A DNA stretch of 64,000 nt, from assembly GCA_044892505.1 (NCBI GenBank), contig CM097882.1, positions 480,996,001 to 481,060,000 of the forward strand, given 5' to 3'. Positions within the stretch are counted from its first letter, which is position 1; the number at the start of each line of letters is the position of its first letter. This document shows positions 26,701 through 44,550 of this stretch, one piece after another. Below the pieces are notes generated by a model. It saw only the letters and a program-made list of their open reading frames with translations. It was not told where the DNA came from and did not search any database. Origin of the DNA: Schmidtea nova (lineage: Eukaryota). A program made the position numbers and the translations under genes.

Positions 26701-29700
26701 GTTTCGTTTGTGGCAATTCTTGTTTCGGGCCTCTTTATTGTAATTCGTAGGGTTGGTGTTGTTTGCTTATCTATTGCCTGGGGTTTTTTGTTTTCTGTTC
26801 CCTGTGTCTCTGTTCTTCCACATTTTCCGATGATGTAATCTCCTTTGGGTGACTGTTGTATTGTCATGGCTGCTTTAGGTGTTTGGTATTTTGCACATGC
26901 GATTGTGTTGTGTGATCTTGGATGCTTTTGTTTCCTAACGGTGCATATTTTGTACCAGGTATCTAGATCTAGGTCGTTGATCTCTATGATCTCTTGCTCG
27001 TGTTTTGAGATTCTGCAATCCATCGGACTATTTTGTTCCGTGATTTTGTCCTTTTTTGACCAACATACTCGTTCGATTCCTTTCGCGTTTTTTATTTGTA
27101 TTATTGCCCTTTCTTCACATGTCATTCCTTGACTTGGATTAATTAACGTTAAAATCACTGTTAGTAATAGTAATTCTGGTTTGAAGAATGGTTTTATGGT
27201 TGATTTATAACCTGTTCTTTGGGTGTCATTTTTATCTCCTTGGTCGTTTGTTCCTTGTTCTCTCTCTTCATCTCTTTGTTTTTCGTCTTCACCTTTCTTT
27301 CCTTCCTTGTCTCGTTTCTTGTCTTTTCTCTCGTTTTCCTCTTTATCGGGTGGTTCGTGATCGCTTAAATTTTCTGAGTTGTTACCGTCGTCACTATCTG
27401 TGTTGTCATCTCCCCCTGGCTCGTCGAAAATGTCGTCCTCGACATTGATTTCTTCTATTAGTTTCGCATATGCTAATGTCGTTAGATTACTTGCCTCAAA
27501 CTCTTGTGTTTCTACCTGTTCTGGTATTACTTTGTTAGTGGATTTATATTCTAAGATTTCCTTTTTGGCCTTGATCCAATTGTTGATGTATGTCTTCATC
27601 AATTCTTTCCATTTGCCTGTGTATTTTTCTTCTTTCGGGCTGGTTGTGATTCTTAGATCCTTTCTTTCCATAAACATCTTCAATATCTCTGGCCATTTAT
27701 ACGTTATTAAGGCACTTCTTATACACCAGTTTTGGTTATGTTCTGTAAATTTATTAATCCTGAATGCTGGTTCGTTAGTATTAGGATTTATCCACGTAAG
27801 TATTGATTCTGTTAGTTCGACGTTGTTCATCATTGCTAGTACACTGGGTTTCTTGACCGTATCAGTTAGGTGATCTATTTCTTCCTGATTTGGGACGGTT
27901 TTAATGAAATTGACCATTTCCCAATTGTGTGTTAATAATGCTACATCCAATATCGAATTATCTTTATCTGTCTTTCCTGTAAGTCCTGCACCTGCTTTGT
28001 ATAGTTCTTCTAATACCTTTGTTTTCGTTTTGGCCCTTGCTGCAAATACCATAAGTGTATCTCCTTTCTCGTCTATCATATTCATATTGCTTCCGCAATT
28101 TAGCATTACTCTTGCAATTTCCATTACTTTCCTATCTTTGCCATTTCGTAGAGCTCTATGTATGGGCATTATTCCGTCTTTTGGTAATAGGAATGTTACT
28201 GGCATCTCCTTTTTTATTATTACTATGTCGTTACCATTGTATGTTCCTTTTGCGTATGCGTGTACTTTTTCAACTAATGCGCCGAGTATTTCCAGTGCAT
28301 GTTTACTATTCTCGAATTCCGGTAACAATTCTTTTGCTTTTTCTTGTATCGCATCTAGTCTAGCTTGGTATGGTGCTTCTGCTTTGAAGAGTGGTGTGAG
28401 TTTCTTGTTACTTTCTCTTTCTTTTTTCTCTAAAACCTGTTTGCATTTTTCGGGATGGTTTAAGATTTTTACTAATTCCTCATATTCGCTTACTATTGTC
28501 TGGTATTTCTCGTTAAAATTGTTTATGTCTTTGTATGTTATTAGTTTATCAAGTGGTTTCGCACACCATTTCCTAATCTTATTGAATAAGGCTTCCTTCT
28601 CTTTATCGAATTTGTATTCTTCTTCATTCTTTGTGATGTTTATGTTTCCTCTGCCTAATAAGGTTAGTAATGTCTTCTGATCACAAGTAAATTTCAAAAG
28701 GTATCTTAACAGTGCGTTTTGTCCTTCGCTGTATACTTCGTTTATGTCTAAGACCCATGTATCATCTTCTGGTCGTTTCCATTTGATTAACTTACGGATC
28801 GTGTTGCATTTACCAATTTTGATTGCCTCTTTGATAATGTCTCCTTTAACTAGTTCGTCTATCTCCCAAGTGGAGTTAGCTATTATGTATTTCAGCATTG
28901 GTTGGTGAGAACTCCATATTACGTGATTTAGCACTGTTTTGTCCTCTCTATCTCGTTCTGTCCAACTGAAATGAGCTTTTATCAATAGATCTATCATTTC
29001 TTTATCTGCTTGGTGGATTGCGGCTGTCATTAATGGAGTTTCTTGTTCACGATTCCCAACGTCTAGGTTTTGGTTTGTTTCTTTTGCGATTTTCAAGAAT
29101 TCTTTTGCTCTTTCAATGTTTTTACACTGAATCGCATTATGTAAGGCCGGTTGTCCTCCTACATCTTTCAATAAGAGTATTTCCGGAATTTTTTCCAATA
29201 AATCCGAAATAATTGGTTCGGTTGGCAATCCTTGTGCGTAACGGCTAATTATATGTCTAATGTCCCTTGATATGCCTACTTCGTCTTTAACATGCCATCT
29301 TCCCATTATTTCTCTCGCCTTCAATATGATCTCTTTATTTCTGATTTCTTTTTGCCTTATTTCTGCTTTGTCGTCTTCAGTTGCATTAGCTCTGAGCATA
29401 TTTATCCTGGCTGTTTGTGATCTGGTTATTATTCGATTTTCTGGTGTTGTAGTTATCGTTTTAGGCACTTTCTTACATCTGCAGGTGTTTACATATATGG
29501 GTCGTACTAAGGGTCGATTTATTAGCTTAACTTTGACATTGTTGTCCTTTTTGTATATAATTTCATAAGGTCCTCTTCCAGGTCTTTGGAGTTTCTTAAC
29601 AGTTCCGGGTATTATTTCGGGAGTTTCTATTATCACCCAATCTCCTGGTTTTAGATCGTTCGCTTTAACATTTTTCTTCTGGTCGTGTAAGTCCTTATAA

Positions 29701-32700
29701 CTTTCCTGATAAAATTTAATGTTGAGTTCTGCTGTTTTCCATATTTCTTGCATTCTTTCTTTGAATTTGGTTACGTAGTCGTCATCTTCCATATATTGCG
29801 ATAATGGTGGCTGATACTCTAAATCTATGGGCATGTTGCATTCTCTTCCATACATAAGTTGAAATGGGCTTAGTTTTGTTGCTGCATGTATCGACATTCG
29901 GTATGCCATTAAACATAATTTTATGTATTCATCCCAGTCAGTTTGGTGTCTGCTGACGTAGTTTGATAACATTCTAATCAATGTGCCGTTGAATCGCTCC
30001 GTTTGTCCATTCGTTTGCGGGTGATATGGTGAAGTTCTCAATTTTGCTATTCTGAAGTAGTTTGTCACCTCGTTCAATAATTCACTCATAAAATTAGTTC
30101 CTTGGTCTGTGAGTATTTGTTTTGGAGTTCCGTATCTGCAACATATTTCTTCCACTAAAATTTTTGCTACAGTTTTTGCTTTTTGGTCTTGCATGGCAAA
30201 TGCTTCCGGGAATTTTGTTAGATAATCTGTTATCACTAATATATAAATATTTCCGTTTAGACTTTCTGGTAATGGTCCTATTACGTCCATTGCTATAGTT
30301 GTCATTGGCTCTGCTGGTATCGGCATTGGTTGTAGCGGGTTCTTCCATTTCTTCCCACTATCCTTTCTGGTTGCGCAAGTTAGACAATTTTTAATCCATT
30401 CTTTTATATCTTCTTCCATTGTTCGCCAATAATATTTTTGTCTCATACGATTTATTGTCTTCTTCTCGGACATATGGCCTCCTAATTTCCCATCATGGTA
30501 CTGGATCATTATCTCTTTCCTTCTGTTTTCCGGTAAACACATCAATCTCTTTTCTCCGTCTTGTATTAATAACCATCCTTTATTTATTATGTAGCGATGT
30601 TGATATTTTCCTATATGTTCCTTTAATTCCTTATTCTCTTTGAATACCTCCATATTTCGAGACGTTAGGAACTCTATGATCTGTCCCAATTCTTTGTCTT
30701 CCTGTTGATCTTTCTTTAACTCACTAAAATCTAAATCCTCCGCTATTAATACACAAATTCGTTGTACATCAGGATCGGTTAATTCTGGAAATGTCAGTCT
30801 TGACATACAATCTGCATTCGCATTCGCTCTTCCTGATTTAAATTTTATGTCTGGTGAGTACTCCTGTAACTGCATCGCCCATCGCATTAATCTACTGGAT
30901 GTTTCCTTGTGCTGTCCTAACCATACAAGCGGTTGGTGATCTGTTGTTATGCAGATGATGTGTCCCCATAATAAATATTTAAAATGTTTTATTGCTAGTA
31001 TAATCGCTAATGCTTCCCGTTCTGTTACTGAGTAATTTTTCTCATGCTTTTTGAATGTCCGGCTATAATATCCGATTACACGTTCTTTTCCTTCGTCATC
31101 GTATTGTCCTAATACGGCTCCTGCTGCATATCCGCTTGCATCTGTTGCAAGTAGGAATGGTTTCTTGAAGTCTGGGTGTACCAATATAGGTGCGGTTATC
31201 AGTTTATCTCTTAATGTCTCAAAGGCTGTTTGTTGTTCATCTCCCCATATGAATGATACATCTTTCTTTACCAGTTCCTGTATAGGCTTTGCGATTCCGG
31301 CGTAATCTTTTATAAACTTTCTATAGTATCCACATAATCCGAGAAATTCTTGTATTTGGGTTATTGTTTTTGGTACTGGGCATTCTTTTACTTTGTCGAT
31401 ATTTCTAGGATCCGGTTCTTTTCCTTTTGCTGACACTATATGTCCTAAAAATGTTACTTTCTCTTTCGCCCAATCACACTTGGATGGCTTGAGTTTTAAC
31501 TTCCATTGTCTAAGCCTAACGAATACATCTCGAATATCCTGTATGTGTTGTTCGAATGTACTAGAGTAAATCAATAAGTCGTCGATGTAGACCATGCACT
31601 GCTTTATTCCGTGGGTGACGAAATTCATGCATCTCTGAAATGATGCTGGTGCGTTCGTCAATCCAAATGGCATTTTCCGAAATTGATATAAATCTCTCCC
31701 GATGGTAAAGGCAGTTTTCTCCTTATCTTCTTCCTTCATTTTTATTTGCCAATATCCGCTTTTCAGATCTAACGACGTAAAATATGCTGCTCCTTGTAAT
31801 GTTAGTAGCATCTCGTTGATGTCTGGTAATGGGTAAGTATCTCGTTTTGTCACTGTATTCAATCTTCGGTAATCTATACAGAATCTCTGTGTTCCGTCTT
31901 TCTTCTTCACCATTACCACTGGAAATTGCCAGGGTGAACAACTTGGTTCGATTACTTCTGCATCCAACATTTTCTTCACTTCTGCTTCTGCTACTGCTTT
32001 CTGTGCTTCCGCTAATTTGTACGGCCTTAATGCAATTGGTGTTTCATCTGTTAATGGTATTGTATGTAGCGTGACATCACATGTTCCTAGATCCAAATCG
32101 GATGCTGCAAATATGTCCTTATACTCCATCAGCAGTTTTTCTAACTGTTTCTTTTGGTCCTTATTTAATAATTCACTATCAATATTCCAGGTTGGTTCTT
32201 TATCTTTCTCTGCCCCTTCTATTGGTAGTTCGATATCCATCATTGGGGTTAATTTACCTAATCTTTCGTTTTCGTATATTATTTTGTCCTCTTCATCGAA
32301 GTTTACTACGTTTATTGGGATTTCTCCATCATCGTTTATGTTAACTAGTCCTCTTGCCATTGGCAACGCTTTTCTTTTCTCGAATCTCTTACTTGGTTCG
32401 AAAATCATATCGCCTTGGATTGTCGGATCTATTTTTACGTAACATATTTTCTCCTTTCTTGCGGGTATTATCATTTGCTTTGAACTTGTCACTTTAGCTT
32501 CTATTGCGCATATTTGTCCTGTGCGATCTTTTAGTCTCATTGTTCCGAGATCGATTACAATTTCTTTAAATAATGCTGGCATCAAATCTGTTCCGATGAT
32601 GCAAGGTACGCTTAACGCTGGTATAACTGCTACGTATGTATCGATTTCCGTGTTTAAGTGGCGTATTTTTACCCACCATCTTCCTGCTACTTCTACAACT

Positions 32701-35700
32701 TCTTTGCTACATGCAATTACATGGACGTTTGTCCTTTCTATCTCCCGTCTTTGCTCTTGTGGTATCCATTTGATGTCGATGGCAGAAATGTTTGCTCCAG
32801 TGTCGATCATTGCTTCGATTTCTCTTCCGTTAATTTCTATTGTCGTGGTTAGTACTGGACCTGTGTTTGATGACATTACTGCGATCGTGTGTGTATCTCC
32901 TTGTGGATCCACACTTCTACATCTTCTCATTTTATAATCTTCTGGTATCATGGGGTATACATTTGTCATTGGCATCATTTGCATCGTGCTATTTTTTCCT
33001 CCTTGTAGTGGTTCTTGATACATGGTTGGTGGAGGTGCGTAACATTTCCATGCGTCGGCTGGATTCTTTTCGATGTATTGTGGTGCTTGGTTCTTATACA
33101 CTTGTCCTCCCTTATAGTCGTCATCGTCGTCATCGTCGTCACTCGAATCATTTTGGGTTTTATATCCTTTCATCCTCTCCCATAAACCTTTTCTTTCTCT
33201 CTTGAGCTGTTGTCTTGCTTGTTCGTCATTCATTATCTTTTTAAATTTTCGTCCTACTTCTTCATCTGTTCCTTTCATTTTTGCTAATATCTTTAGGAGT
33301 CTTTTTATTCGGTGGATATCTTTTGAGTGACCGTGTAACACCATCGTTTTCGCAAGGAATGGTAAAAATCCTACTACCATTTTCCAATTCACTTTCTTTT
33401 CTCTCTTGTAAATATCGAAACACGCTAACATTTGCGTTATTATCACTCTGACGATTTGTATTATTAATATAACCCCAAGTATTCCGGCCATCATTTGTCC
33501 GAATATCAGGAATCTTCCCCACATTGCTTTCATCATATTTTCGGTGGCTTTCTTGAAATGTGCTGGTGACAACAACAGTTCATAATTCGGTCCTTCTCGA
33601 TAATTCGTTCCTCCCGTTATCGTTACGATATTTGACAGTAATGCTTCTCTTCTCGCTGGAAATAATATATTCTGCCTTGCTGCTTCTAAATCTTTCGGAC
33701 TATATATTCCGTTGTTTGAGACATCTACGTCGCTGAATTGCCTATCCTTTGACAACTGCATTAATTCGAATTCTCTTGGTGCTATCACTTCGGATCTTCC
33801 TGGGAACATAACCCATTTACCATCTGGTTTTTGATAAAGTGGTCCATACGCATTACTACAGTTGAATGGATTTGGTTCAAACCCTGGTGGATTTATGATT
33901 CTCGTCACCGGTTGAACGTATCGTACTTTTCCTTTGTAATCGATTTCTAACTCATTTGTACAGGTTCCAGGTTTCAACTGTGTTGTTGCTGCTAGCGACG
34001 CGTGTGTTTTTTCGCAAATGTATACGTACATTGCTTCTCCGACCACTCTTCCGAAATGTCCTTCTCTCAGTGGTAATAATGGCATCGCGCTATCTGGATT
34101 CGTAATCGCTACGGCCAACTTTGTCTTTAATATTTCTCGATTTAGTATACAATCATTATTTATCAAATCGTAGTACACTTTTTGTAATGAGGCTTGTCCT
34201 CTATGGAATAGGAAATCCATTTTATTATTCACATACAAGTGTAGTTTGATATCCATTGTGTCGATTTTGGGTTTCGCATTTGGCACTTCTTGTTTTGACA
34301 CATATATTCCTGGATAATTCGTTTCGTATACCGTTGTACTACACTTAAGGGTTGCTTTCCCTTTTATGAATCTCATTCCCACATCTTGATTTGTGGTTAT
34401 CAACACTGTTGGTGTGGCTCTCATCTCTATCCGTTTTTCTCTATGATCTGGTTTCAGTTGTCTTTTATTCTCTAAAGCTTCCTTGAGATGCTTTGCTCTC
34501 GCTTTGTCGTCATCGTCTTCTTCCTGAAACGTTTTTCCTTGGATTTCGTCGAACTGTGCTCCTTGTAGCAGTTGTAATTGACATTCGTTCACCTTTGGTT
34601 TGTATACTAATGTTGACATTCCTGTTTGACACATGCTCCTGTCGATTTTACACATGGATAACGTTTTCATTTCTCCCGTTGTTGGTTCGAAGAATGCTTC
34701 ATAGCTTTTCAATTCGACTATATACGTATCCATCACCACTAAGTTGGTTGCGGGTACTCCGAATATTGGGTAGGTTTCTCCTTGACAATATCCTTCTCCT
34801 CCCGTAATCCGTCCTGCTACATAGTATGTCTGTTGCATCATCATTCCTGGCTTTCCTCTTATCTTGATTTTATCTCTTGTTGTTACTTCTCCATGTTTAA
34901 ACAGTGCTTCGCAGTCTTCTCCTTGTAACACGATTGGTTCTCTTTCCGTTCCTGGCATGACAATTGCTGAATAATGTCCTCTCCCGCAGTAGAATGCGAA
35001 TCTCGTCTTCTGCACTTTACATTCATTCACCATTGTCTTTATGAGTTCTGCTTCTTGATACACGTGGTACCATTGTTCCTTTTTAATCTTTTGCAACTCT
35101 ACCGGAGTTGCATCTTTGCATTGCTCCGTACCTCTCAATGAATACTTTTCTCCTAACTTCATTTGGTCACAATCAAACACTTCGAATGCTGTTGCGCTAT
35201 CGGTGCTAATCATCCAAATCAACATCATCATTATTATAGCACTCAGATTCATTGATGACTTTGCGTTTCCTGTTCCTGCTTGTTCTTTTCCTAACTCTTC
35301 CAATATTTTTTCGAATTTCTTTTTCATATTCTTCGCTTGCGTTTTCTTCTGGTTAGTTTTTATAAATGTTTCCCATCCTCCTTTGTTAATGACGTAGGGT
35401 TCTATTTCTCTAGCTATAATCTTTGCGGTATTTTTTATATGTCTCTCTAATGCAGTAGGTTTTGGTCGACCTCTACTCAATGTCAACAGATTGTATATCG
35501 TGTATGCAATGGCTATTACGTATTTGTTATCCGTTTCCGCTCCTTCTGTCAGTTTCTTTATTAACATAGTGGTCCCTTGCCAGTCTAAATGGTTTGACTT
35601 CGTTTTTTCTTTTATGAATTCCGGTAAGATGGGTGCAATTGCGCTGTGTAATGACTTCGCCTTTTCGCTTATCTCAGTTATCCGCCAGTATTTTCTCAAT

Positions 35701-38700
35701 TCCGGATCAATTATTGCCAATATCTCCATTATCGTTTTCGATATCCATTCCTCCCCTTGACATATTGGTGTTGTCTCTTTTTCTTTCATTTCCGCAATTT
35801 TATTTAATTTCCTTAAACATAATTCCCATTGATCTTGTCTCTTTTCGTCTTTATTTCTGATAACTATATTCGCTGGGTCTGTCTTGGGTCTACCTCTAGG
35901 TCGTCTATCCATTCCTGTCCCTGTTTCCACAAATCTTGTTGCCTGTCCGGTTTCTTCCGTGACATCTCTTGGTTCGTTAGCTCTTTCCTCTAACCATCTT
36001 TCCATTTCTTGCGTTAATTGTACATTTTCGACATTCGTTCCTCTCGTTTCGTCTTCTGTCAAATCGTTTACTTCTTCTATTATTATTTCTTCTTCGACTT
36101 CTGCTTCTCCGGTGTTGGTTACTTGTATTGTCGTAGGTAGTTCTTGTATTCTTTCGAAAATGTTATCGTCCTTTTCCTTTGTTAATTCGGTTAATTCTTC
36201 TATCATATCGTCGCTGTCTGTCAATATTTCGTCCACGTCATATGGTTGTGGTGGAGTCCTTTCTCCATTCCCTCTGGGTGTTGTCTCAGATCGTCTCGAA
36301 CTTGTCCCTGGTGTTAATGCTGATTTCATCGGACTCGGCGTACTTATACTTCCGTGTGGTTTACAGTTTTCTTCTTTACGTTTCAATGGTTGACCCGCTA
36401 TTGCTTCTACTGTCAAGGTATTCATGAGGTCTAATTGTGCTGGTGTTATTCCGATTTCCAAACTGTTATCTAATGATCGTCCTTGGTGTTGTAAATGGAA
36501 TGGTGGTTCGTATCTCAATTTCTTTTTAATATCTCGAATTTTTTCTGCAATTCCTACCCAAAGCTCTTCCTTATCCTTGTTTGGATATATTATTCTTAAA
36601 TGTACTTTTTGTGGAATTTCTTGCGAGAATTCTTGATTTCTCCATTTCCTGATTACGTGGTCTAGTTGTTCCGGACACCACTCGTTAACTCTTTTATATT
36701 CCGCGATTGCTTTTGCTACTTTACGCAAGCATGTTATATCTTCCCCATTTACCACGAAAAAATCTGCGAGGCCTTTTATTAATTTGGTTTTTAATATTTC
36801 GACAAATTCTTCCGTTTTTTGCTTTTCCCTTTCTAACCACATGGCCGCTGTTTCTGGTCCATCTAGGTCTATTGGCGTAGCTTTCCTTGTTACCATGCAA
36901 ACCCTTCTTATCTCTGGTTCGCAGTCATCTTCAATTCCTCTTTTATATTCTTCTTCATATTCCCCTTCTTTTGGTTCCCAACATTTTCCTTTCTCGTTCC
37001 ATTGTTTTTCTACGGGTGTTCGTATTCGTCTGTTGAGATTGAGTTCTTCTAATACATTTTCCCACTCTGGCCAAATTCGCCAATTTCGATAAATTTCTAC
37101 TATTTGTTGTAATTTACGCATAACTTCTTTCCGTCGTTCCCGTTCTCTTTTCTCATCTTTAGCAGTTTCCCTTGGTGTATCGTCCATTCTGCTAACGTGG
37201 ATGGTTTGGTGATTATCCCATATACCGATTTTATATAGTCGTCTCTCATCGTGATCCCATAATACATGTTCGTTATATTGTATGATTATGTCGTCTTCCC
37301 ATTCGTCTTCTGGTTCTCTTTGCACTAGTGTCTCGTTGATGACATTTATTAATTCTTTAATGGTGCAGTCCGCTACCACTTCGATTTCTTTGGTGTCTTC
37401 ATTAGGTAACTCTACTGAAATTTTTAGATCTGTTATTTTCCCTTGTCTGAACATTGTTTTTCCCATTTTTGCGATTAATTTATCGTGTGAGATTTGTGAC
37501 CATCTCGTGTGACTTGTGTCACGTATGCACTCAATACATCGTTTCAATTTCTCGTATTCGTTTCTCATTAACTCTTTTCTATGTTTTTTGACTTGTGGTA
37601 TGATTTGTTCTATCAGGGAATTTAGATTCTTTCGCAAAACTCGTTCTTTCTCGTATTCTAACCGTGGTTTTATTCTCCTTTCGAAGCACGCGTTTGCTTC
37701 CCTTGCAACTTCTTGTAGGTTCTCTTCTTCTTTTTCATCACATATTGATAACAAGGTTATTTCTCCTGGCCATATACCTGTTTCTACTAAGTGAGTTCTT
37801 TTCTTTACGAGTCTATTCTGCGAATAGATGAATTTGTTTTTGTATGAGCTCCCTAGTCTATCTTCTACCCATCTGTAGATATCGTCTGTAAATGGAGTTT
37901 TGATCCAGATTCTTGGTGTAGACGTATTTATTATTATTGAGATGGTGTAATTGAGGAGTGGTTCCTCTATTAATTTCCCTACGTATCGATTCAACATGTC
38001 TACCTCCCGGTCTTGTAACCATTCTTTGTAGTTCATTTGTAGTAATGCTTTCATGAATTTCCGGTATTGTTTCTTGTCCATGAACTCTTCGTTATATATT
38101 ACCTCTAGCGAGTTATCTAGTAATTTCTGGATTTCATCTACTTTTATCTGTATAGGTTCTGAGGTCTTTATTACTTCTCTCTCTTTATTTTCGTCTTCGG
38201 ATTCATTTAATATGTCTCCTGCTAGGCTACTGATGTCACTATCTTCTTCTTCATCGGAAAACTCTCTGGTGGTATTTCTTAACATATTAATATGTGCTAT
38301 TTGGTTCGTTTCTCCTTGTATATTCTCCGTTGGTTCTGGTTCGTTTTTGTCAATTTCTGGTGTTGGTTCACTCTTGTCCTCTATTACTTCGACTTTTTCC
38401 ATTTTCTTTCCCAACTCGTCTATCTCTTTTAAACGTCTTCTTATCATTTTCCCTTCAAATATTCGCCTGATTCGGGTTTCGTGACGTATTGGTGGTGGAA
38501 TTTCTTCTGGTTCTATTTCTTTAATTCTCATCACATTTCTTTTTGTCTCTGTTACTCCCACGTTTTCCCATATATCCGTTAATTTCAATTTTACTGATGG
38601 TGCATCTCCTATTTGTAAGAACGCTTCTCTGGGCAGTTTTGTCACTCCTGGAATCATCTGGTTTACTTTATTGAACAGTATTTCCACCTGTTCTTTTGCG

Positions 38701-40679
38701 TTATATTGGAATCGAAACATATGGTCGTTGGGCATGATTACCATCATTCCTTTTTTCCAAATCTCCTTTCCCCCTTCCTGGTTTATCTCGGTTTCCACTT
38801 CCTTTTTTGTTTCTTTTTCTACTTCTTCATCTTTTTGTACTATCTCTTTTCGACTTTCGTTGTCGGCTGGATTTGGGTCTATCGAATTCATTTCCAGTGT
38901 GGTTTCTTTCTCGCGAGTGTCTGTTTGGTTTGTTGCTCTTAGCATGTTAATTCTTAGAGGTTGTCGTTCTCTTTCTTGCTGTTTTTGCTCATCCTCTCTT
39001 TGTATTCTTGCCCATTCCTGAGCGTGTCGTGCTTGACTTTCTCGATTCAATCGTTCGTTTTCGCTTTCTATTTTTCTCATCATGCTAATTTGCTGTTGAT
39101 TGGTTTGCGGATTTCCTCTCGTCGTATTGTTTATAAGTTCCGTCAATCTTTGGACTTCTTGCATTAAATGTATTTCTTTGGGGGTGGTTTTGTTCTGATT
39201 ATTGTTATTATTGACTTGTTGGTTCCCATAATCTGGTCGGTTTACGGTATTTGCTTGATTTCCGTAATTTGGTCGGTTCCCATTACTCTGCCAGTTTCCT
39301 CGTTGATTACTTTTTTGTCCGCAATTTCTTGAATAGTGACCAGGTCGTCCGCAATTAAAACAGATTATTGTAGAACATCTGCTTTCCGAGTGTCCTTTGA
39401 CTCCACATTTTCCGCAATTCAAATTTTGATAGCATTCTTGCTGCCAGTGTCCCAACTTCCCGCATGTTTTACATTGTTTTGTTTGTCTTTGAGGGTTGTA
39501 ATTGTTTTGATTGTCAAAGTTCTGCACTTTGTTTCCTTCATTCCTTCGTTGAGGGGGTGGTCGGTTTAATTGTTGCGAGTTTGGAATATGATTGTTGAGA
39601 TTTACTTCTGGTTCGGTTTGCGCTGTGTCCATGGCTAAATAAATTCTGCCTTCGCTTCCTATCATATGCAATTCAAATCGGTTAGCTGTTTCTAACGCTT
39701 GATCTATGGTTTTGCATCCTTGACATCCTACTTGCGCTCTTATGTCGGGTCTTCTTAGTCCTCCTATGAAGATAGCTGCCATTAACTCCTCGTTTATTGG
39801 ACCTCCATCCTTGAATACCGATTTTGCTAATTTTTTCAGTTCGCTCGCGTATACCGCATTAGATTCATTCATCTTTTGTTTCCTCATTGAGAATTCTATG
39901 AATGCCTCGCTCAGCACTTTATTTATTCCAAATGTTTGTTGGAAAAAGTCTTTTATCGCTGTCCAGCTTGTAGGTGGATTGGTACCATTTTTCGCTTCCA
40001 AATATAGGTCCAATGCACTATCTTTCAAATATAACTGAATTCTGCTTACCGTTGTTTCAGCTTTCCACTTGCATACCTCCACGAATATGCCAAATTCTTT
40101 TAAAAAGGTTTCTAATTTACTCGCATCTCCGTTAAACGGTTCTCCTGAAAATTTATCCTTTATTTCTTCTCTTGGTTCACCCATTTCAATTCCGCTGTCT
40201 TGAGTTATTTTACTTTCGTTTCCTCTTGTTTCTAGTTCGTTGTTATGTTCGTCTTCCGTTTTACTCGAGCTTGAATCGCTTTCTGTTTCTCTTATTACTT
40301 CGTGATCTGATATTATACTTTCGTTATCACTCTCGTTGATTTCTACTTCTTGTTCTACTTCACTCTCTAATTCTTCTATATTATCGTTATTAGTTTCGTC
40401 TACTTCTATTTCACTTGTTTGGCTCTCTTTGGGTTCTGCTTGGTTTTCTTTGTTACTTGAACTGTTGCTTACTACTGACAATTTATCGTTTTCGATAATC
40501 GCTTTATCTCTTATTATTTTCCTCGCTTTACTCCCTTGTGGGTTCTTGTTGTTATCTTTGCCGGCTTTCTGCTTTTTTGTTGTTTTTGTTGTAGTACTAG
40601 TTTTGTCTTTTTTATTGCTCTCGCTGCCGACTTTCTTTTCTGTTGGCTTTATTACGACACTCTTTACTCCTGTTCTCAA
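23730..40679 (-). CDS. gag-env-pol: 5649-aa polyprotein: Gag-UBLs-Bcl-2-like-Env-PR-RT-RNaseH-IN-ankyrin-FN3 membrane modules
   Basis: Capsid ~39660-40150; three CCHC knuckles 39321-39473; protease DTG 32796-32804; RT YIDD 31578-31589; RNase H TDAS ~31140; integrase GH...CLTC, DVIGP, TDQG, ERFN, GPY ~29500-30520. Track start is TTG; first in-frame ATG is at 40184. Confidence 0.96.
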   Translation of the reverse strand: MRTGVKSVVIKPTEKKVGSESNKKDKTSTTTKTTKKQKAGKDNNKNPQGSKARKIIRDKAIIENDKLSVVSNSSSNKENQAEPKESQTSEIEVDETNNDNIEELESEVEQEVEINESDNESIISDHEVIRETESDSSSSKTEDEHNNELETRGNESKITQDSGIEMGEPREEIKDKFSGEPFNGDASKLETFLKEFGIFVEVCKWKAETTVSRIQLYLKDSALDLYLEAKNGTNPPTSWTAIKDFFQQTFGINKVLSEAFIEFSMRKQKMNESNAVYASELKKLAKSVFKDGGPINEELMAAIFIGGLRRPDIRAQVGCQGCKTIDQALETANRFELHMIGSEGRIYLAMDTAQTEPEVNLNNHIPNSQQLNRPPPQRRNEGNKVQNFDNQNNYNPQRQTKQCKTCGKLGHWQQECYQNLNCGKCGVKGHSESRCSTIICFNCGRPGHYSRNCGQKSNQRGNWQSNGNRPNYGNQANTVNRPDYGNQQVNNNNNQNKTTPKEIHLMQEVQRLTELINNTTRGNPQTNQQQISMMRKIESENERLNRESQARHAQEWARIQREDEQKQQERERQPLRINMLRATNQTDTREKETTLEMNSIDPNPADNESRKEIVQKDEEVEKETKKEVETEINQEGGKEIWKKGMMVIMPNDHMFRFQYNAKEQVEILFNKVNQMIPGVTKLPREAFLQIGDAPSVKLKLTDIWENVGVTETKRNVMRIKEIEPEEIPPPIRHETRIRRIFEGKMIRRRLKEIDELGKKMEKVEVIEDKSEPTPEIDKNEPEPTENIQGETNQIAHINMLRNTTREFSDEEEDSDISSLAGDILNESEDENKEREVIKTSEPIQIKVDEIQKLLDNSLEVIYNEEFMDKKQYRKFMKALLQMNYKEWLQDREVDMLNRYVGKLIEEPLLNYTISIIINTSTPRIWIKTPFTDDIYRWVEDRLGSSYKNKFIYSQNRLVKKRTHLVETGIWPGEITLLSICDEKEEENLQEVAREANACFERRIKPRLEYEKERVLRKNLNSLIEQIIPQVKKHRKELMRNEYEKLKRCIECIRDTSHTRWSQISHDKLIAKMGKTMFRQGKITDLKISVELPNEDTKEIEVVADCTIKELINVINETLVQREPEDEWEDDIIIQYNEHVLWDHDERRLYKIGIWDNHQTIHVSRMDDTPRETAKDEKRERERRKEVMRKLQQIVEIYRNWRIWPEWENVLEELNLNRRIRTPVEKQWNEKGKCWEPKEGEYEEEYKRGIEDDCEPEIRRVCMVTRKATPIDLDGPETAAMWLEREKQKTEEFVEILKTKLIKGLADFFVVNGEDITCLRKVAKAIAEYKRVNEWCPEQLDHVIRKWRNQEFSQEIPQKVHLRIIYPNKDKEELWVGIAEKIRDIKKKLRYEPPFHLQHQGRSLDNSLEIGITPAQLDLMNTLTVEAIAGQPLKRKEENCKPHGSISTPSPMKSALTPGTSSRRSETTPRGNGERTPPQPYDVDEILTDSDDMIEELTELTKEKDDNIFERIQELPTTIQVTNTGEAEVEEEIIIEEVNDLTEDETRGTNVENVQLTQEMERWLEERANEPRDVTEETGQATRFVETGTGMDRRPRGRPKTDPANIVIRNKDEKRQDQWELCLRKLNKIAEMKEKETTPICQGEEWISKTIMEILAIIDPELRKYWRITEISEKAKSLHSAIAPILPEFIKEKTKSNHLDWQGTTMLIKKLTEGAETDNKYVIAIAYTIYNLLTLSRGRPKPTALERHIKNTAKIIAREIEPYVINKGGWETFIKTNQKKTQAKNMKKKFEKILEELGKEQAGTGNAKSSMNLSAIIMMMLIWMISTDSATAFEVFDCDQMKLGEKYSLRGTEQCKDATPVELQKIKKEQWYHVYQEAELIKTMVNECKVQKTRFAFYCGRGHYSAIVMPGTEREPIVLQGEDCEALFKHGEVTTRDKIKIRGKPGMMMQQTYYVAGRITGGEGYCQGETYPIFGVPATNLVVMDTYIVELKSYEAFFEPTTGEMKTLSMCKIDRSMCQTGMSTLVYKPKVNECQLQLLQGAQFDEIQGKTFQEEDDDDKARAKHLKEALENKRQLKPDHREKRIEMRATPTVLITTNQDVGMRFIKGKATLKCSTTVYETNYPGIYVSKQEVPNAKPKIDTMDIKLHLYVNNKMDFLFHRGQASLQKVYYDLINNDCILNREILKTKLAVAITNPDSAMPLLPLREGHFGRVVGEAMYVYICEKTHASLAATTQLKPGTCTNELEIDYKGKVRYVQPVTRIINPPGFEPNPFNCSNAYGPLYQKPDGKWVMFPGRSEVIAPREFELMQLSKDRQFSDVDVSNNGIYSPKDLEAARQNILFPARREALLSNIVTITGGTNYREGPNYELLLSPAHFKKATENMMKAMWGRFLIFGQMMAGILGVILIIQIVRVIITQMLACFDIYKREKKVNWKMVVGFLPFLAKTMVLHGHSKDIHRIKRLLKILAKMKGTDEEVGRKFKKIMNDEQARQQLKRERKGLWERMKGYKTQNDSSDDDDDDDDYKGGQVYKNQAPQYIEKNPADAWKCYAPPPTMYQEPLQGGKNSTMQMMPMTNVYPMIPEDYKMRRCRSVDPQGDTHTIAVMSSNTGPVLTTTIEINGREIEAMIDTGANISAIDIKWIPQEQRREIERTNVHVIACSKEVVEVAGRWWVKIRHLNTEIDTYVAVIPALSVPCIIGTDLMPALFKEIVIDLGTMRLKDRTGQICAIEAKVTSSKQMIIPARKEKICYVKIDPTIQGDMIFEPSKRFEKRKALPMARGLVNINDDGEIPINVVNFDEEDKIIYENERLGKLTPMMDIELPIEGAEKDKEPTWNIDSELLNKDQKKQLEKLLMEYKDIFAASDLDLGTCDVTLHTIPLTDETPIALRPYKLAEAQKAVAEAEVKKMLDAEVIEPSCSPWQFPVVMVKKKDGTQRFCIDYRRLNTVTKRDTYPLPDINEMLLTLQGAAYFTSLDLKSGYWQIKMKEEDKEKTAFTIGRDLYQFRKMPFGLTNAPASFQRCMNFVTHGIKQCMVYIDDLLIYSSTFEQHIQDIRDVFVRLRQWKLKLKPSKCDWAKEKVTFLGHIVSAKGKEPDPRNIDKVKECPVPKTITQIQEFLGLCGYYRKFIKDYAGIAKPIQELVKKDVSFIWGDEQQTAFETLRDKLITAPILVHPDFKKPFLLATDASGYAAGAVLGQYDDEGKERVIGYYSRTFKKHEKNYSVTEREALAIILAIKHFKYLLWGHIICITTDHQPLVWLGQHKETSSRLMRWAMQLQEYSPDIKFKSGRANANADCMSRLTFPELTDPDVQRICVLIAEDLDFSELKKDQQEDKELGQIIEFLTSRNMEVFKENKELKEHIGKYQHRYIINKGWLLIQDGEKRLMCLPENRRKEIMIQYHDGKLGGHMSEKKTINRMRQKYYWRTMEEDIKEWIKNCLTCATRKDSGKKWKNPLQPMPIPAEPMTTIAMDVIGPLPESLNGNIYILVITDYLTKFPEAFAMQDQKAKTVAKILVEEICCRYGTPKQILTDQGTNFMSELLNEVTNYFRIAKLRTSPYHPQTNGQTERFNGTLIRMLSNYVSRHQTDWDEYIKLCLMAYRMSIHAATKLSPFQLMYGRECNMPIDLEYQPPLSQYMEDDDYVTKFKERMQEIWKTAELNIKFYQESYKDLHDQKKNVKANDLKPGDWVIIETPEIIPGTVKKLQRPGRGPYEIIYKKDNNVKVKLINRPLVRPIYVNTCRCKKVPKTITTTPENRIITRSQTARINMLRANATEDDKAEIRQKEIRNKEIILKAREIMGRWHVKDEVGISRDIRHIISRYAQGLPTEPIISDLLEKIPEILLLKDVGGQPALHNAIQCKNIERAKEFLKIAKETNQNLDVGNREQETPLMTAAIHQADKEMIDLLIKAHFSWTERDREDKTVLNHVIWSSHQPMLKYIIANSTWEIDELVKGDIIKEAIKIGKCNTIRKLIKWKRPEDDTWVLDINEVYSEGQNALLRYLLKFTCDQKTLLTLLGRGNINITKNEEEYKFDKEKEALFNKIRKWCAKPLDKLITYKDINNFNEKYQTIVSEYEELVKILNHPEKCKQVLEKKERESNKKLTPLFKAEAPYQARLDAIQEKAKELLPEFENSKHALEILGALVEKVHAYAKGTYNGNDIVIIKKEMPVTFLLPKDGIMPIHRALRNGKDRKVMEIARVMLNCGSNMNMIDEKGDTLMVFAARAKTKTKVLEELYKAGAGLTGKTDKDNSILDVALLTHNWEMVNFIKTVPNQEEIDHLTDTVKKPSVLAMMNNVELTESILTWINPNTNEPAFRINKFTEHNQNWCIRSALITYKWPEILKMFMERKDLRITTSPKEEKYTGKWKELMKTYINNWIKAKKEILEYKSTNKVIPEQVETQEFEASNLTTLAYAKLIEEINVEDDIFDEPGGDDNTDSDDGNNSENLSDHEPPDKEENERKDKKRDKEGKKGEDEKQRDEEREQGTNDQGDKNDTQRTGYKSTIKPFFKPELLLLTVILTLINPSQGMTCEERAIIQIKNAKGIERVCWSKKDKITEQNSPMDCRISKHEQEIIEINDLDLDTWYKICTVRKQKHPRSHNTIACAKYQTPKAAMTIQQSPKGDYIIGKCGRTETQGTENKKPQAIDKQTTPTLRITIKRPETRIATNETERVSYQMEVLCLALILIIIKRLEEGIEIETMTITEVEDTQNTNIKCWARNNEEIGVNEIRKSRKPTTNKVIKVSKVKADKTYKLCLLEKERNKKGTIKCKTFQPGEVIKFRRRTRKRNKQIKQKVNITLEIKEIEPNVKGVCWRKYEKETNERKTPQCQTSTGATMIQIKGLESKQTYEICLVKKDDQITINDLECGIYTTSSGTRTKTLTRKNKRKQQNKGKPKYTTTFKNNKQPISQEVTTKPERKTSATLTLWKIENKTLEICWIRVQKHIRRQSRECRKTNKEIKIEKLQFNSEYEVCTIEKTDALGNQQERCETYYTPANATSKGITRKLEFKELSQTNEQMDAEKTITDPQAKWTPEEVIKEVKRKQEEREQLMRKLKGQYGIMFNQSESIQTDENKEIKELIGLGILTATIPVIIALSAIWIRKINPKKSVTQWTNRDSTSHGVEMLEEEAREEPKKKEAKSGKLGINNKDKEIKEIKGEEKKYERRTRSLPQSSKWLGLTIILTLINREEATNLQAGIKIVNVQEVEKICWNREDEPIGKDNPLKCIIRKSDQDIVRIEGMDRGIMHRICIIGKEKKSGLPKTVVCQKYETPRLEWYKVKPTKKEIKTTIDRPATQKENTTNKPREGERSTNKTRERISPQQECVCIALILAMSKRIDKGIIIEQMAITIRKTSSNKLCWGTYNEPRKEYQVQTSDESRTNKEIEIQEIQMNEEGSICIWEKGTQEDQPGIEHCKTFQKGETLNFDEERLTKTERTLTLTGLDQTVKGICWIKYNPEVEEDNLTHCKEIKNKEKVELKKMEVNRTYAICTFTRKGSEKPECGLYQISEKPQQQIEPGNVENQTKENNVKQLLNRHWSTQEVMNKVKSQIPKEKKPEAQTQNEIKANQNKRETNSGKTIIGLMSIGILIAYGILTTSIIVYWRYRKRNKAIAIQWPDIKIMKLGIEIPEEIQKEFQRRTKGKEFWKQIEDEERYEEKTIMMV
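33150..35250 (-). other. env: Envelope glycoprotein domain of the polyprotein, chuvirus (Jingchuvirales)/class III fusion-like
   Basis: Internal signal LSAIIMMMLIWMISTDSATA then FEVFDC; motifs CKVQKTRFAFYCGRGH, GYCQGETY, CILNREILKTKLAVA..NPD, GHFGRVVGEAMYVYIC, GIYSPKDL...ILFP, MWGRFLIFGQMMAGILG (TM 33420-33537); furin-like REKR at 34431-34442. Confidence 0.8.
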
Positions 40680-41288
40680 CGGGATTACTTTTGTATACTC
40701 AATTTTCCTGTCTTATCTCTTATCGTGTTCTGATTCTTCTTGTTTGATTGGTTGGTTTGATTGATTTGTATATCTAAAATACAAAGGTCCTCAACGATAC
40801 ATTATTGTTATCGTCGCGCTTTTATTCCCTTTCTTTCGGGATTACTTTTTACTGGGTTTTCATTATTTCCCAATTCCCAGATTCCCCTTTATTTTTAGTC
40901 TATTTAAATTATCTATAGACTGGTCACAATTATCTATTTATGTCGTAATAATTATCTATACTTTATAAATCAATTACTTTTCCCACAGTTTCCCAAATTA
41001 TTGGTCGCTCGAGCGCTCTAATTCCCTGAGTCTTTCTGACTCGTTTATCATTATTTTATCATTTCTATTCATTATTCCCTGCTAGCAATCGTTTTACTCA
41101 TTCTGCCGGTTGCTCCGGTCAGCCCAAATTTTTACTATTCTCCTTGCATGCTTTACTTAAGGTTGCATAATCAGCTTTACTCGCATTTTCTTAACTACTG
41201 GTGCGCACTACTCTAAATCTCGTCGACGATTTTACTAAGGGTCTATATTCCCTTTGTTACTATATATCCGGATATCTCTATAATTCAC

Positions 41289-41610
41289 TATGGCTCTTCT
41301 GGCCTCAATTTTATATCTCACATGGCTCTATTGGCCTCAATTTAATCTCTCAAATGGCTCTCCTGGCCTCAATTTAATCTCTCAAATGGCTCTATTGGCC
41401 TCAATTTAATCTCTCAAATGGCTCTCTTGGCCTCAATTTAATTTCTCAAATGGCTCTATTGGCCTCAATTTAATCTCTCAAATGGCTCTATTGGCCTCAA
41501 TTTAATCTCTCAAATGGCTCTCTTGGCCTTAATTTAATCTCTCAAATGGCTCTCTTGGCCTTAATTTAATCTCTCCAATGGCTCTCTTGGCCTTAATTTA
41601 ATCTCTCCAT
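41289..41610. repeat. 32-bp tandem array (~10 copies, ATGGCTCTATTGGCCTCAATTTAATCTCTCAA) in the element leader
   Basis: Direct reading; no unique spacers. Confidence 0.93.
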
Positions 41611-41649
41611 AACGCCTAGCTAGGTCATTCAATAAGGCTCATTGGCCTC

Positions 41650-42028
41650 AACCCTTTTTTTCAAGGGACAAACCGCTAATAACCCTTTGTTTCAAGGGAC
41701 AAATCTCATAACCCTTTGTTTCAAGGGACAAATCTCATAACCCTTTGTTTCAAGGGACAAATCTCATAACCCTTTGTTTCAAGGGACAAATCTCATAACC
41801 CTTTGTTTCAAGGGACAAATCTCCTAACCCTTTGTTTCAAGGGACAAATCTCCTAACCCTTTGTTTCAAGGGACAAATCTCCTAACCCTTTGTTTCAAGG
41901 GACAAATCTCCTAACCCTTTGTTTCAAGGGACAAATCTCCTAACCCTTTGTTTCAAGGGACAAATCTCCTAACCCTTTGTTTCAAGGGACAAATCTCCTA
42001 ACCCTTTGTTTCAAGGGACAAATCTCAT
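41650..42028. repeat. 29-bp tandem array (~13 copies, AACCCTTTGTTTCAAGGGACAAATCTCCT) in the element leader
   Basis: Direct reading; each unit holds a CCCTT-N6-AAGGG hairpin. Confidence 0.95.
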
Positions 42029-42508
42029 AAAACTTTACTTAACCGGTTAATCACAATTCTTAACTTCGCTAGCGATTACTATTTCTCAGCTGAGTTATAA
42101 CTACTTCTATGCGAGCTGACTATGCACCTTTTATTCTCTCAAAAATGTCATTTCTCTCTATTCTATCGTGATTATTTACTGATCTGTCTGCTTTAACCTT
42201 TTTATTTATTTTTCTCTATGCGCGCTTTACTCCATCACGATTTCCCTATCTCTCTCCCCAACCAAAATATACAAAAAGATCGCGTTGGTTCATTAATGCA
42301 GGATGTGGTGATCAATCACATCACAAAAACTTTCCAACATTTGCGATGGGCCCCTTTCTATACACCCTGACTAGGTTGATCAATCGGTACCTCCCAATGG
42401 ATTCTTATCGGACTACTTTGCAGTAGCTCAAAAATTATTTATATATGACAATTGTACCCATGATTTCATCATTAATAAACCAATAAAATTCCATTCAAAT
42501 TTTATTTA

Positions 42509-42970
42509 TTATAAATATACAATAATTTTATCGTCTATCATCAGGTTGCACATAGGACATAGGTCGCGCTTGCTGGCACATATTTTACAAAAACGAAAAT
42601 GTCCGCAAGGTAAAAACATAATTTGTATCTCCCTATCCTCACATATATAGCACTGTCGGTATTTTTTCGCTGCTTCTACCCCCTGCGCCCTCCATCGATT
42701 GTATGTTGGGGTTAATCGTTGTTCTATTTGCCTGCACTTAATGTTTAGTTCTGCATTTTCTAATCGTGCTCTGTACCATTTGTAGCGGGTCTTTATGTCG
42801 ATTTTACCTGTTCTTTCTGTTATCTTTATTAACTCATCCGTCTCTTCAGTCTGTGTTGTGGGTTCCTGAAATTCAGTCTCTCTAAATCGGTTTATTTTCT
42901 TGCCAATCGTTTCTAATGTTTCACTTTCTGTGTTGAGAAATTCTTCAATTTCTTTCAGTTTTTCCTCCAT
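42509..42970 (-). CDS. Element-encoded 153-aa protein: coiled coil plus C-terminal IAP/MDM2-type RING finger, no BIR
   Basis: CYICEDREIQIMFLPCGHFRFCKICASKRDLCPMCNLMIDDKIIVYL-stop parallels the XIAP/cIAP RING, including the terminal hydrophobic tail. Confidence 0.9.
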   Translation of the reverse strand: MEEKLKEIEEFLNTESETLETIGKKINRFRETEFQEPTTQTEETDELIKITERTGKIDIKTRYKWYRARLENAELNIKCRQIEQRLTPTYNRWRAQGVEAAKKYRQCYICEDREIQIMFLPCGHFRFCKICASKRDLCPMCNLMIDDKIIVYL

Positions 42971-43277
42971 TTACTAAATAAATAATCGTTTTAACTCTGT
43001 TATTTTTATCGTTTTAAGGTAGTAATATGTTTCGTTTTGTATCTTTTAATATTTAACTCCCCCCGTGTTTCCGAAAATTGTCGTCCCGACAAATTATCTA
43101 TGCATGCATTTTAATTTTTAAATTCACTTTTGTTCACTGCCGTGTTGTTATTTTAATTTTTATACAATAATTTAAATTTAATTATAACCTTTCTGTTTTT
43201 TATTAAATTAATTGACACGAGCATTTTAAACTTCTCTGCAGATTTTACATTTACATTTTTCCGATAAAACGAAGTTG

Positions 43278-43295
43278 ATCCCGGCTGAGCCCCCA
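43278..43295 (-). promoter_or_regulatory. Primer-binding site, tRNA-Pro type
   Basis: TGGGGGCTCAGCCGGGAT, 6 nt inside the 5' LTR; differs from the MLV tRNA-Pro PBS (TGGGGGCTCGTCCGGGAT) at two positions. Confidence 0.85.
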
Positions 43296-43769
43296 AATTT
43301 ATGCTGGGTTCATGGAGGGGTTAGATGAAAAATGCTCTAACAATGACTAGGGATCCCTCATCCATGATCATGCATAAAATTGCAATTCTACACTCAAGCG
43401 CCCTTGATTATTTCCCTATATAATCAAGTTGGTGATGCGCAGGGTGGTTAAACAATGATGGGCAGGTGAGCACTATCGCTAGTACTACTCCCCATTTATG
43501 TTTACGGGTCCATTGCTGCCGTTAGAAGGACTTACGCTTTAATCATCCCCTTAGGTATTCCGTGTTAATCTTTCAGAAAATTTATTTTTATCATTACTCA
43601 GTCTGCGAGAAGTATTTCAACGAATGCTCGCTTAATTATTTAATTATCTCTATTCGATATTTTGTAAACTAAATTTATACTTTTGTTCTATCTTTATTTA
43701 ATCATTGGTAAAGTTAATTAAATCAATTTAAATGAACGATGAGATTCTTAAGCCAATGCAACAATTTAT

Positions 43770-44366: not shown

Positions 44367-44550
44367 TCTATAATTTATTTAGGATATTTACTCTATGATT
44401 AAATGATGTGAAAAATGAAACTGATTATAGGGTTATTTGGTTACGAATATGAATTATTAAAAACACAATACCAAAACTCAAAACAACATAACAAAAACAC
44501 TGCTGAATATTAATATTTAATCACAATTTGAAAGATTTGACAATCAGTTC

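What the first reader, a model, noticed from the sequence alone, without database searches (positions are those of the whole stretch)
35355..35835. Bcl-2-like domain between Gag and Env
Seen: an all-helical ~150-aa segment ending IEPYVINKGGWETFIK, close to the Bcl-xL BH2 motif (LEPWIQENGGWDTFVE), with a divergent BH1-position helix (KLTEGAETDNKYVIAIAYTIYNLL) and a BH3-like helix (IMEILAIIDPELRKY). The following hydrophobic Env signal could double as its C-terminal membrane anchor. Established: viral Bcl-2 homologs are known from large DNA viruses. Inference: an anti-apoptotic or NF-kB-inhibiting vBcl-2 in a retroelement, which I have not seen described.
Basis: partly seen in the sequence, partly recalled or inferred. 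Interest (0 to 1): 0.85.

Follow-up and report, generated by a model that had tools for sequence, protein, structure and literature searches.

The report
Eroded Bcl-2 domain in Burro retrotransposon
This stretch is very likely a strongly diverged Bcl-2-like domain inside a giant Burro-type retrotransposon, an arrangement already in print; it is likely left tethered to a membrane by the envelope signal and likely acts on host cell-death control, which is untested.

Summary
The motifs are there. They lie in a 5,660-aa ORF (Gag, spacer, segment, signal, Env, PR, RT, RH, IN, ankyrin) of an intact 29.8-kb LTR element with at least 150 near-identical copies. This is a Burro-type element, and the "not described" claim fails: a review (PMC6431247) already reports a BCL2-like motif in Burro elements, with Env between BCL2 and protease.

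The segment alone matches nothing (Pfam, PDB, Atlas, 1.8 billion proteins), so its homology is indirect. Three sister families in the same genome carry a recognisable Bcl-2 domain at the same place, and profiles built without the segment score it above 1,000 of 1,000 shuffles. The fold test was inconclusive (pLDDT 62, TM about 0.3, best Foldseek E 0.09).

The domain is under purifying selection. A signal-derived membrane anchor is plausible. An anti-apoptotic role is inferred, not shown. Verdict: new, diverged member of a known kind.

The parts
16641..46415 (-). Whole Burro-type Ty3/gypsy LTR element, 29,775 bp, TG...CA ends, 4-bp target duplication AAGT
43302..46415 (-). 5' LTR, 3,114 bp, 1 mismatch to the 3' LTR (very recent insertion)
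16641..19754 (-). 3' LTR
42509..42970 (-). 153-aa ORF with an IAP-type RING finger; no BIR domain found in it
   Evidence: PF13920 E 5e-12; XIAP RING E 2.4e-10
23730..40712 (-). 5,660-aa open frame (first Met at aa 177): Gag, spacer, Bcl-2-like, Env, PR, RT, RH, IN, ankyrin, membrane-protein-like tail
39303..40184 (-). Gag with CCHC knuckles (approximate bounds)
   Evidence: zf-CCHC E 1e-7; Gag similarity to sister families
37173..37430 (-). Possible ubiquitin-like domain in the Gag-Env spacer (weak)
   Evidence: Ubiquitin_4 E 0.047, under the cut-off; no PDB hit
35340..35852 (-). Diverged Bcl-2-like domain, aa 1621-1791 (the finding)
35775..35846 (-).
   Evidence: the BH3 likeness is recalled, not tested
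35706..35756 (-). Helix holding IMEILAII: likely helix 1/BH4 equivalent rather than BH3
   Evidence: inference from alignment A1 and helix order in the model
35625..35669 (-). Likely helix 2 (BH3 position), without the Gly-Asp pair
   Evidence: inference from helix order and spacing
35490..35558 (-). BH1 region; the NWGR position (35523-35534) reads TDNK in 30 of 30 copies examined
35364..35402 (-). BH2 motif EPYVINKGGWETF, identical in 30 of 30 copies examined
35187..35252 (-). Internal hydrophobic signal for Env with a predicted peptidase site after ...SATA; likely left as the tail anchor of the Bcl-2-containing product
   Evidence: hydropathy; cleavage and topology inferred
33423..35186 (-). 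Env, Monjiviricetes-type fusion glycoprotein, with a transmembrane helix near aa 2407-2425
   Evidence: PF24664 E 3.7e-73; hydropathy
30018..32846 (-). PR-RT-RNase H-integrase in gypsy order
28875..29144 (-). Ankyrin repeats after the integrase (best stretch)
   Evidence: Ank_2 E 8e-13
21779..23158 (-). 459-aa TRAF-like accessory ORF (RING, TRAF zinc fingers, coiled coil, MATH)
   Evidence: MATH_2 E 5e-21, zf-TRAF E 6e-8

Best explanation
The segment is very likely a host-derived, strongly diverged Bcl-2-like domain of a Burro-type giant retrotransposon, likely left on the cytosolic face of the ER by the cut Env signal, where it would likely dampen death signalling in cells that express the element. 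Shown: position in one open frame directly before the Env signal; a recognisable Bcl-2 domain at the same place in three sister families; purifying selection; loss of the NWGR signature. Inferred: (1) the element's protease cuts the polyprotein at recurring [IV][NCS]M[LMV][RT] motifs, the last one before the domain being at aa 1271; (2) the hydrophobic stretch at aa 1821-1842 sends Env into the ER and is cut after ...SATA, so a product of about 570 aa keeps it as a tail anchor; (3) the domain binds host Bcl-2-family proteins in a non-canonical way, as poxviral Bcl-2 proteins without clear BH motifs do, working with the element's IAP-type RING and TRAF-like proteins. Odds: homology 0.9, anchor 0.7, pro-survival activity about 0.5.
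For: PF00452 search of the own genome: 16 of the 30 best loci are retroelement copies with the domain directly before an Env signal. Three such families all read Gag-domain-Env-Pol, with Env 34-35%, RT 52-54% and IN 49-50% identical to the window's. Their profile A3, without the window's family, hits Bcl-xL at E 7e-7 and non-Burro Bcl-2 genes at 96.7% HHalign probability; the Atlas puts L041 with Bcl-2 clusters (0.92, 215 of 256 features). Window segment against 4 sister domains: z 3.5-5.5; against intron-type gene L036: z 8.4, 0 of 1,000 shuffles. Profiles without it beat 1,000 of 1,000 shuffles. Foldseek: 44 of 46 listed PDB rows name a Bcl-2-family protein, and 5 of the 8 best viral rows are named Bcl-2. 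Against subfamily L130: gapless, 70% aa identity, pN 0.16, pS 0.81. GGW-to-signal spacing is 40-50 aa in 5 of 5 lineages. PMC6431247 gives the same order. DPV022 lacks recognisable BH motifs yet binds Bak, Bax and Bim (PMC11209288 passage).
Against: No direct hit for the segment or its own-family profile. HHalign gives only 55% to the sisters and 26% to non-Burro genes, over the C-terminal part. The model is weak (pLDDT 62, pTM 0.52); no Foldseek row reaches E<=0.001, TM is about 0.3 and rmsd mostly 9-13 A. 6 of 7 non-Burro Bcl-2 genes gave z under 3. NWGR, whose Gly and Arg matter for BH3 binding (PMC9027176, PMC7719400 passages), reads TDNK, and the sister families also lack the Gly. The whole Gag-Env spacer is about as conserved (57-75% per 100 aa), so selection is not special to this domain. 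The function reported for Burro1 is credited to its IAP region (as cited in PMC13465017).
Confidence: 0.6

Rival explanations
1. A Bcl-2 fold reused as a signalling scaffold. The BH3 groove is dead or filled by the domain's own N-terminal helix, and the surface binds innate-immune or ubiquitin-pathway proteins, like the poxviral A46/A52/B14 group (recalled), together with the element's TRAF, RING and ankyrin proteins.
For: The BH1 Gly is lost in all families and the Trp in nearly all copies. A BH3-like helix is kept 126-144 aa before GGW in 5 of 5 lineages. TRAF-like, IAP-RING and ankyrin modules lie in the same element.
Against: A basic residue is kept at the NWGR Arg position in all 14 aligned sequences. 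No similarity to that poxviral group was singled out. No partner evidence.
Confidence: 0.2
2. A Bcl-2-derived domain that has lost its signalling role in this lineage and is kept as a folded, matrix-like spacer. It tethers the Gag-side product to the membrane where Env sits and couples capsid to envelope during assembly.
For: The window's family sits on a long branch (2.58 changes per column). Conservation is like that of the surrounding spacer and Gag. Position next to the Env signal is fixed in all lineages.
Against: Protease-site-like motifs at aa 542, 588, 808 and 1271 would separate it from capsid (cleavage inferred). BH2 and the helix-5 core stay conserved.
Confidence: 0.13
3. Not homologous: the ancestral Bcl-2 domain was replaced or has drifted away in this family, and the GGW match is chance or a last remnant.
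For: No direct database hit; low TM-scores.
Against: Collinear matches at the N-helix, helix 5 and BH2, at the same place as in the sisters. 0 of 1,000 shuffles reach the score with three profiles.
Confidence: 0.07

Closest known systems
Burro (GYPSM1/Burro1-4) giant gypsy-like LTR retrotransposons of planarians (PMC6431247, section 7 read in full; Grohme 2018 and Jurka 2007 known only as cited there)
   Same: About 30 kb; one huge polyprotein; Gag with CCHC knuckles; BCL2-like motif followed by an in-frame mononegavirus-type Env before PR-RT-RH-IN; ankyrin repeats; MATH/TRAF and RING modules; possible ubiquitin-like domain before BCL2.
   Different: Longer ORF (5,660 aa against 4,873 and 5,140). 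The TRAF-like gene is a separate ORF downstream of the polyprotein. The IAP-type ORF has a RING but no BIR. The Bcl-2 domain has diverged below Pfam detection. No direct sequence comparison with published Burro elements was possible.
Cellular Bcl-2 family (Bcl-xL, PF00452), including this genome's own genes L031-L039
   Same: BH2 motif, helix-5 core, helix order, hydrophobic tail after BH2.
   Different: NWGR reads TDNK; no Gly-Asp at the likely BH3 position; extra N-terminal helix; embedded in a polyprotein; anchor shared with the Env signal.
Viral Bcl-2 proteins of DNA viruses (KsBcl-2, ORFV125, DPV022, ASFV homolog, lancelet adintovirus Bcl2)
   Same: A Bcl-2 domain carried by a mobile element, with eroded BH motifs; these are the best though non-significant fold hits.
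   Different: They are stand-alone genes of DNA viruses, several with measured BH3 binding; KsBcl-2 and ORFV125 keep the BH1 Gly-Arg.

Membership tests
Burro giant LTR retrotransposons | About 30 kb with long LTRs, many copies | tested here: met
   29,775 bp, 3,114-bp LTRs; 150 of 150 scored matches at 94-100% identity
Burro giant LTR retrotransposons | Single polyprotein with Env in frame between Gag and PR-RT-RH-IN | tested here: met
Burro giant LTR retrotransposons | Accessory MATH/TRAF, RING and ankyrin modules | tested here: met
Burro giant LTR retrotransposons | BIR domain (Burro1) | tested here: inconclusive
   No BIR among Pfam hits of the polyprotein and five accessory ORFs; short or spliced ORFs were not searched, and it may be specific to some families
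Burro giant LTR retrotransposons | RT sequence groups with published Burro elements | not testable with these tools
   No published Burro sequence was returned
Bcl-2 family (PF00452) | Pfam score over the cut-off | tested here: not met
   Segment: no hit at E<=1. Sister domains score about 26-35 bits around the cut-off of 31.4
Bcl-2 family (PF00452) | BH2 motif (W/Y-x4-GGW) | tested here: met
Bcl-2 family (PF00452) | BH1 NWGR signature with Gly-Arg | tested here: not met
   TDNK in 30 of 30 copies; several viral members lack it too, so this lowers canonical membership, not descent
Bcl-2 family (PF00452) | Helical bundle around a central hydrophobic helix 5 | tested here: inconclusive
   pLDDT 62; Foldseek best E 0.089, TM about 0.3, Bcl-2 family on top
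Bcl-2 family (PF00452) | C-terminal membrane anchor | tested here: inconclusive
   Hydrophobic stretch 40-50 aa after GGW in 5 of 5 lineages; whether it stays attached is inferred
Pro-survival viral Bcl-2 proteins | Binds BH3 motifs and blocks intrinsic apoptosis | not testable with these tools
   Needs binding and cell assays

The most novel reading that the evidence does not exclude
Burro elements make a working, ER-anchored Bcl-2-fold protein whose tail anchor is the leftover Env signal, so survival factor and envelope are made one to one. Its groove is regulated by a built-in BH3-like helix, and it descends from one host Bcl-2 paralog lineage (L036-like) that a Polinton-like DNA element of the same genome also captured.
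Probability: 0.15. Interest if true: 0.7.

Novelty: new member of a known kind. Interest (0 to 1): 0.3.

Why it matters
A Bcl-2-like domain in a retroelement is unusual but already recorded for Burro elements. This copy adds an intact, very young element, four domain families to compare in one genome, and specific features to test: loss of NWGR in all families, a conserved extra helix, and a signal-anchor topology. Burro1's IAP region is reported to protect stem cells from apoptosis (seen only as cited in PMC13465017). A working Bcl-2-like protein would be a second survival arm upstream of caspases and, as far as my searches reach, has not been tested.

Tried and rejected
Direct searches with the segment found nothing: Pfam, PDB sequences (7; own-family profile, 60), ESM Atlas (19, best 0.79), word-index searches (L041 against longer proteins, 38; A1, 88) and the 1.84-billion-protein HMMER scan (75). 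The single-sequence fold was unusable (pLDDT 43.5). VIA-align against 48,161 chains listed no Bcl-2 protein in its 50 rows (best Z 6.3, generic bundles), which is no evidence either way. The complex of the domain with the BH3 region of own-genome gene L032 gave no verdict (0.13 and 0.02 against a mark of 0.34). No RNA holder was listed; four runs of unrecorded kind cover the element evenly as contigs and say nothing on expression. The BH3-bearing exons of the Bak-like genes were not found in two 10-kb stretches. L041's near-canonical NWDR is a private change (1 of 27 copies; the family reads NRDR or NQDR), so its Pfam score and Atlas result are slightly flattered. The tree groups the 8 Burro domains at 93/91, not starred and with long branches, and does not name a donor. 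Three look-ups in earlier scan findings gave nothing on this element. Grohme 2018 and Lee 2026 are not held, so their text and supplements are unseen; either may already treat the BCL2 domain in more detail.
Full report
Observation. The segment lies on the minus strand in one open frame of 5,660 codons (23730-40712). In stop-to-stop numbering IMEILAII is at aa 1661, the BH1-position helix at 1719-1741, GGW at 1778, the hydrophobic stretch at 1821-1842, and Env starts at 1843. GGW occurs once among the 212 window ORFs of 60 aa or more.

The element. Pfam gives CCHC knuckles, a Monjiviricetes-type fusion glycoprotein (E 3.7e-73), protease, RT, RNase H, integrase and ankyrin repeats, in that order. 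Two LTRs of 3,114 bp differ at one base; the ends are TG...CA with a 4-bp target duplication, 29,775 bp in all. Accessory ORFs code an IAP-type RING without BIR and a TRAF-like protein. The segment found 1,014 candidates in the own genome; all 150 scored are 94-100% identical and 144 of them have no stop.

Already in print. PMC6431247 (passages, then section 7 in full) describes the Burro elements of planarians. They exceed 30 kb and have one polyprotein of about 4,900-5,100 aa with MATH/TRAF, BIR, ankyrin and a BCL2-like motif (credited to Grohme 2018), a ubiquitin-like domain before BCL2, and a mononegavirus-like Env between BCL2 and protease. This is the anatomy found here, so the host is probably a planarian (inference). 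PMC13465017 (passages) cites Lee 2026 for an anti-apoptotic role of Burro1's BIR-RING region. I could not read Grohme 2018 or Lee 2026. Passages of PMC8532177 and PMC11410931 add only that Burro elements are abundant and can be transcribed. Searches listed no paper whose title or abstract start points to a test of the BCL2 domain.

Is this segment the Bcl-2 domain? Directly, no tool recognises it; indirectly the case is good. A PF00452 search of the own genome scored 150 of 1,679 candidates, 33 over the cut-off. Of the 30 loci read, 16 are retroelement copies with the domain directly before an Env signal and 14 are other Bcl-2 genes. Three families examined over 20 kb each read Gag-domain-Env-Pol in ORFs of 2,992-3,073 aa, with Env 34-35%, RT 52-54% and integrase 49-50% identical to the window's. 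Their profile, without the window's family, hits Bcl-xL at E 7e-7 and the non-Burro genes at 96.7%. One member maps to Bcl-2 clusters in the Atlas, though its near-canonical NWDR is a private change (1 of 27 copies).

The window's segment aligns collinearly with these sisters. Pairwise z is 3.5-5.5 for 4 sister domains and 8.4 for gene L036, but under 3 for the other 6 non-Burro genes. HHalign gives 55% to sisters and 26% to non-Burro genes. Three profiles lacking the window's family score the segment above all 1,000 shuffles and pick it as the best place in the polyprotein; among the 212 window ORFs, though, the polyprotein ranked 3rd, 1st and 2nd. Pfam Bcl-2 matched 10 of the 14 aligned sequences at E<=1, not the window's.

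Fold. With 14 retroelement sequences AlphaFold2 reached pLDDT 62 and nine helices. Foldseek found no match at E<=0.001. Of 46 listed PDB rows 44 name a Bcl-2-family protein, one is unrelated and one has a cut title, at TM about 0.3; the rows are redundant and the score includes sequence. In the viral library 5 of the best 8 rows are named Bcl-2, at E 0.23 or worse.

Corrected anatomy. Counting back from BH2, IMEILAII falls on the first core helix and aligns with IIDLI-type helices of the sisters, so it is more likely BH4/helix 1; the BH3 position then lacks Gly-Asp (inference). An alternative register cannot be excluded. The NWGR position reads TDNK in 30 of 30 copies. The sisters read NRDR/NQDR, DKDK or DENR: the Gly is lost in all, and a basic residue is kept. 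Passages of PMC9027176 and PMC7719400 name this Gly and Arg as important for BH3 binding, while PMC11209288 notes that DPV022 binds Bak, Bax and Bim without recognisable BH motifs. An extra helix with an L-x-x-I-A core lies 126-144 aa before GGW in 5 of 5 lineages; its likeness to BH3 is recalled, not tested.

Selection. Against a subfamily (L130) the domain is gapless and 70% identical, with pN 0.16 and saturated pS 0.81; Gag capsid gives 73%, 0.15 and 0.78. It is kept as protein, but so is the whole spacer.

Mechanism. Shown: frame, order, homology by position, selection, motif loss. Inferred: the protease cuts at the recurring motifs at aa 542, 588, 808, 1271 and 3770; the signal carries Env into the ER and is cut after ...SATA; Env's transmembrane helix (aa 2407-2425) returns Pol to the cytosol. 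The product from about aa 1272 to 1842 would keep the signal as a tail anchor, 40-50 aa after GGW in all five lineages. There it most likely binds host Bcl-2-family proteins and favours survival of expressing cells (about 0.5). A signalling scaffold (0.2), a structural tether (0.13) and non-homology (0.07) are the rivals. Expression and binding are untested.

Origin. L036, which ends at a GT splice donor after GGW, is the closest non-Burro gene by pairwise score. A second mobile family carries 51%-identical, uninterrupted relatives of L036 in long terminal inverted repeats. The tree of 16 domains groups the Burro rows at 93/91 without a star and does not identify a donor.

Verdict. A real and very likely Bcl-2-derived domain in a known kind of element; the arrangement is published, the function is open. 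New member of a known kind, interest 0.3.

Noticed in passing
L126 (G000:C1:241178500-241188400) and many of the 150 matches: A high-copy Polinton/adintovirus-like DNA element with terminal inverted repeats of at least 1.1 kb (99.7% identical). Each repeat holds a Bcl-2 gene (PF00452 over cut-off); the element also has PolB-type ORFs, an adenoviral-type protease and a TBP-like ORF. The paper search for adintovirus plus Bcl-2 gave 0, but a lancelet adintovirus Bcl2 is in the viral fold library.
   Followed up: partly
window 33200-35200 against L130: Env is 98% identical (pS 0.28) between two subfamilies whose flanks are only 39-78% identical per 100 aa, with synonymous sites near saturation; this suggests exchange of env between subfamilies.
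   Followed up: partly
window 23730-27200 (-): The polyprotein ends in two similar blocks, each with a signal-like hydrophobic stretch, cysteine-bearing beta-rich repeats (weak Fn3 hit, E 0.0095) and a transmembrane helix: possibly surface proteins not named in the Burro description read.
   Followed up: no
window 19959-20564 and 20604-21692 (-): Two further accessory ORFs before the 3' LTR: a 201-aa protein with hydrophobic segments and a 362-aa coiled-coil protein; no Pfam family over cut-off.
   Followed up: partly
window 43770-44378 and 44551-45030 (-), repeated at 17109-17717 and 17890-18369: ORFs of 202 and 159 aa inside the LTR; the 202-aa one has no Pfam hit over cut-off, the 159-aa one was not scanned.
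   Followed up: no
window 41279-42030: Tandem repeat block in the leader between the RING ORF and gag.
   Followed up: no
L143-L148: The three sister families have a second ORF of 636-869 aa that overlaps the end of ORF1 and has no match to the window domains tested.
   Followed up: no
window 36360-38770 (-): Up to three ubiquitin-like stretches by eye in the Gag-Env spacer; only one gave a weak Pfam hit.
   Followed up: partly
window 7696-9095 and 13437-14342: Arrays of a 15-bp satellite outside the element.
   Followed up: no
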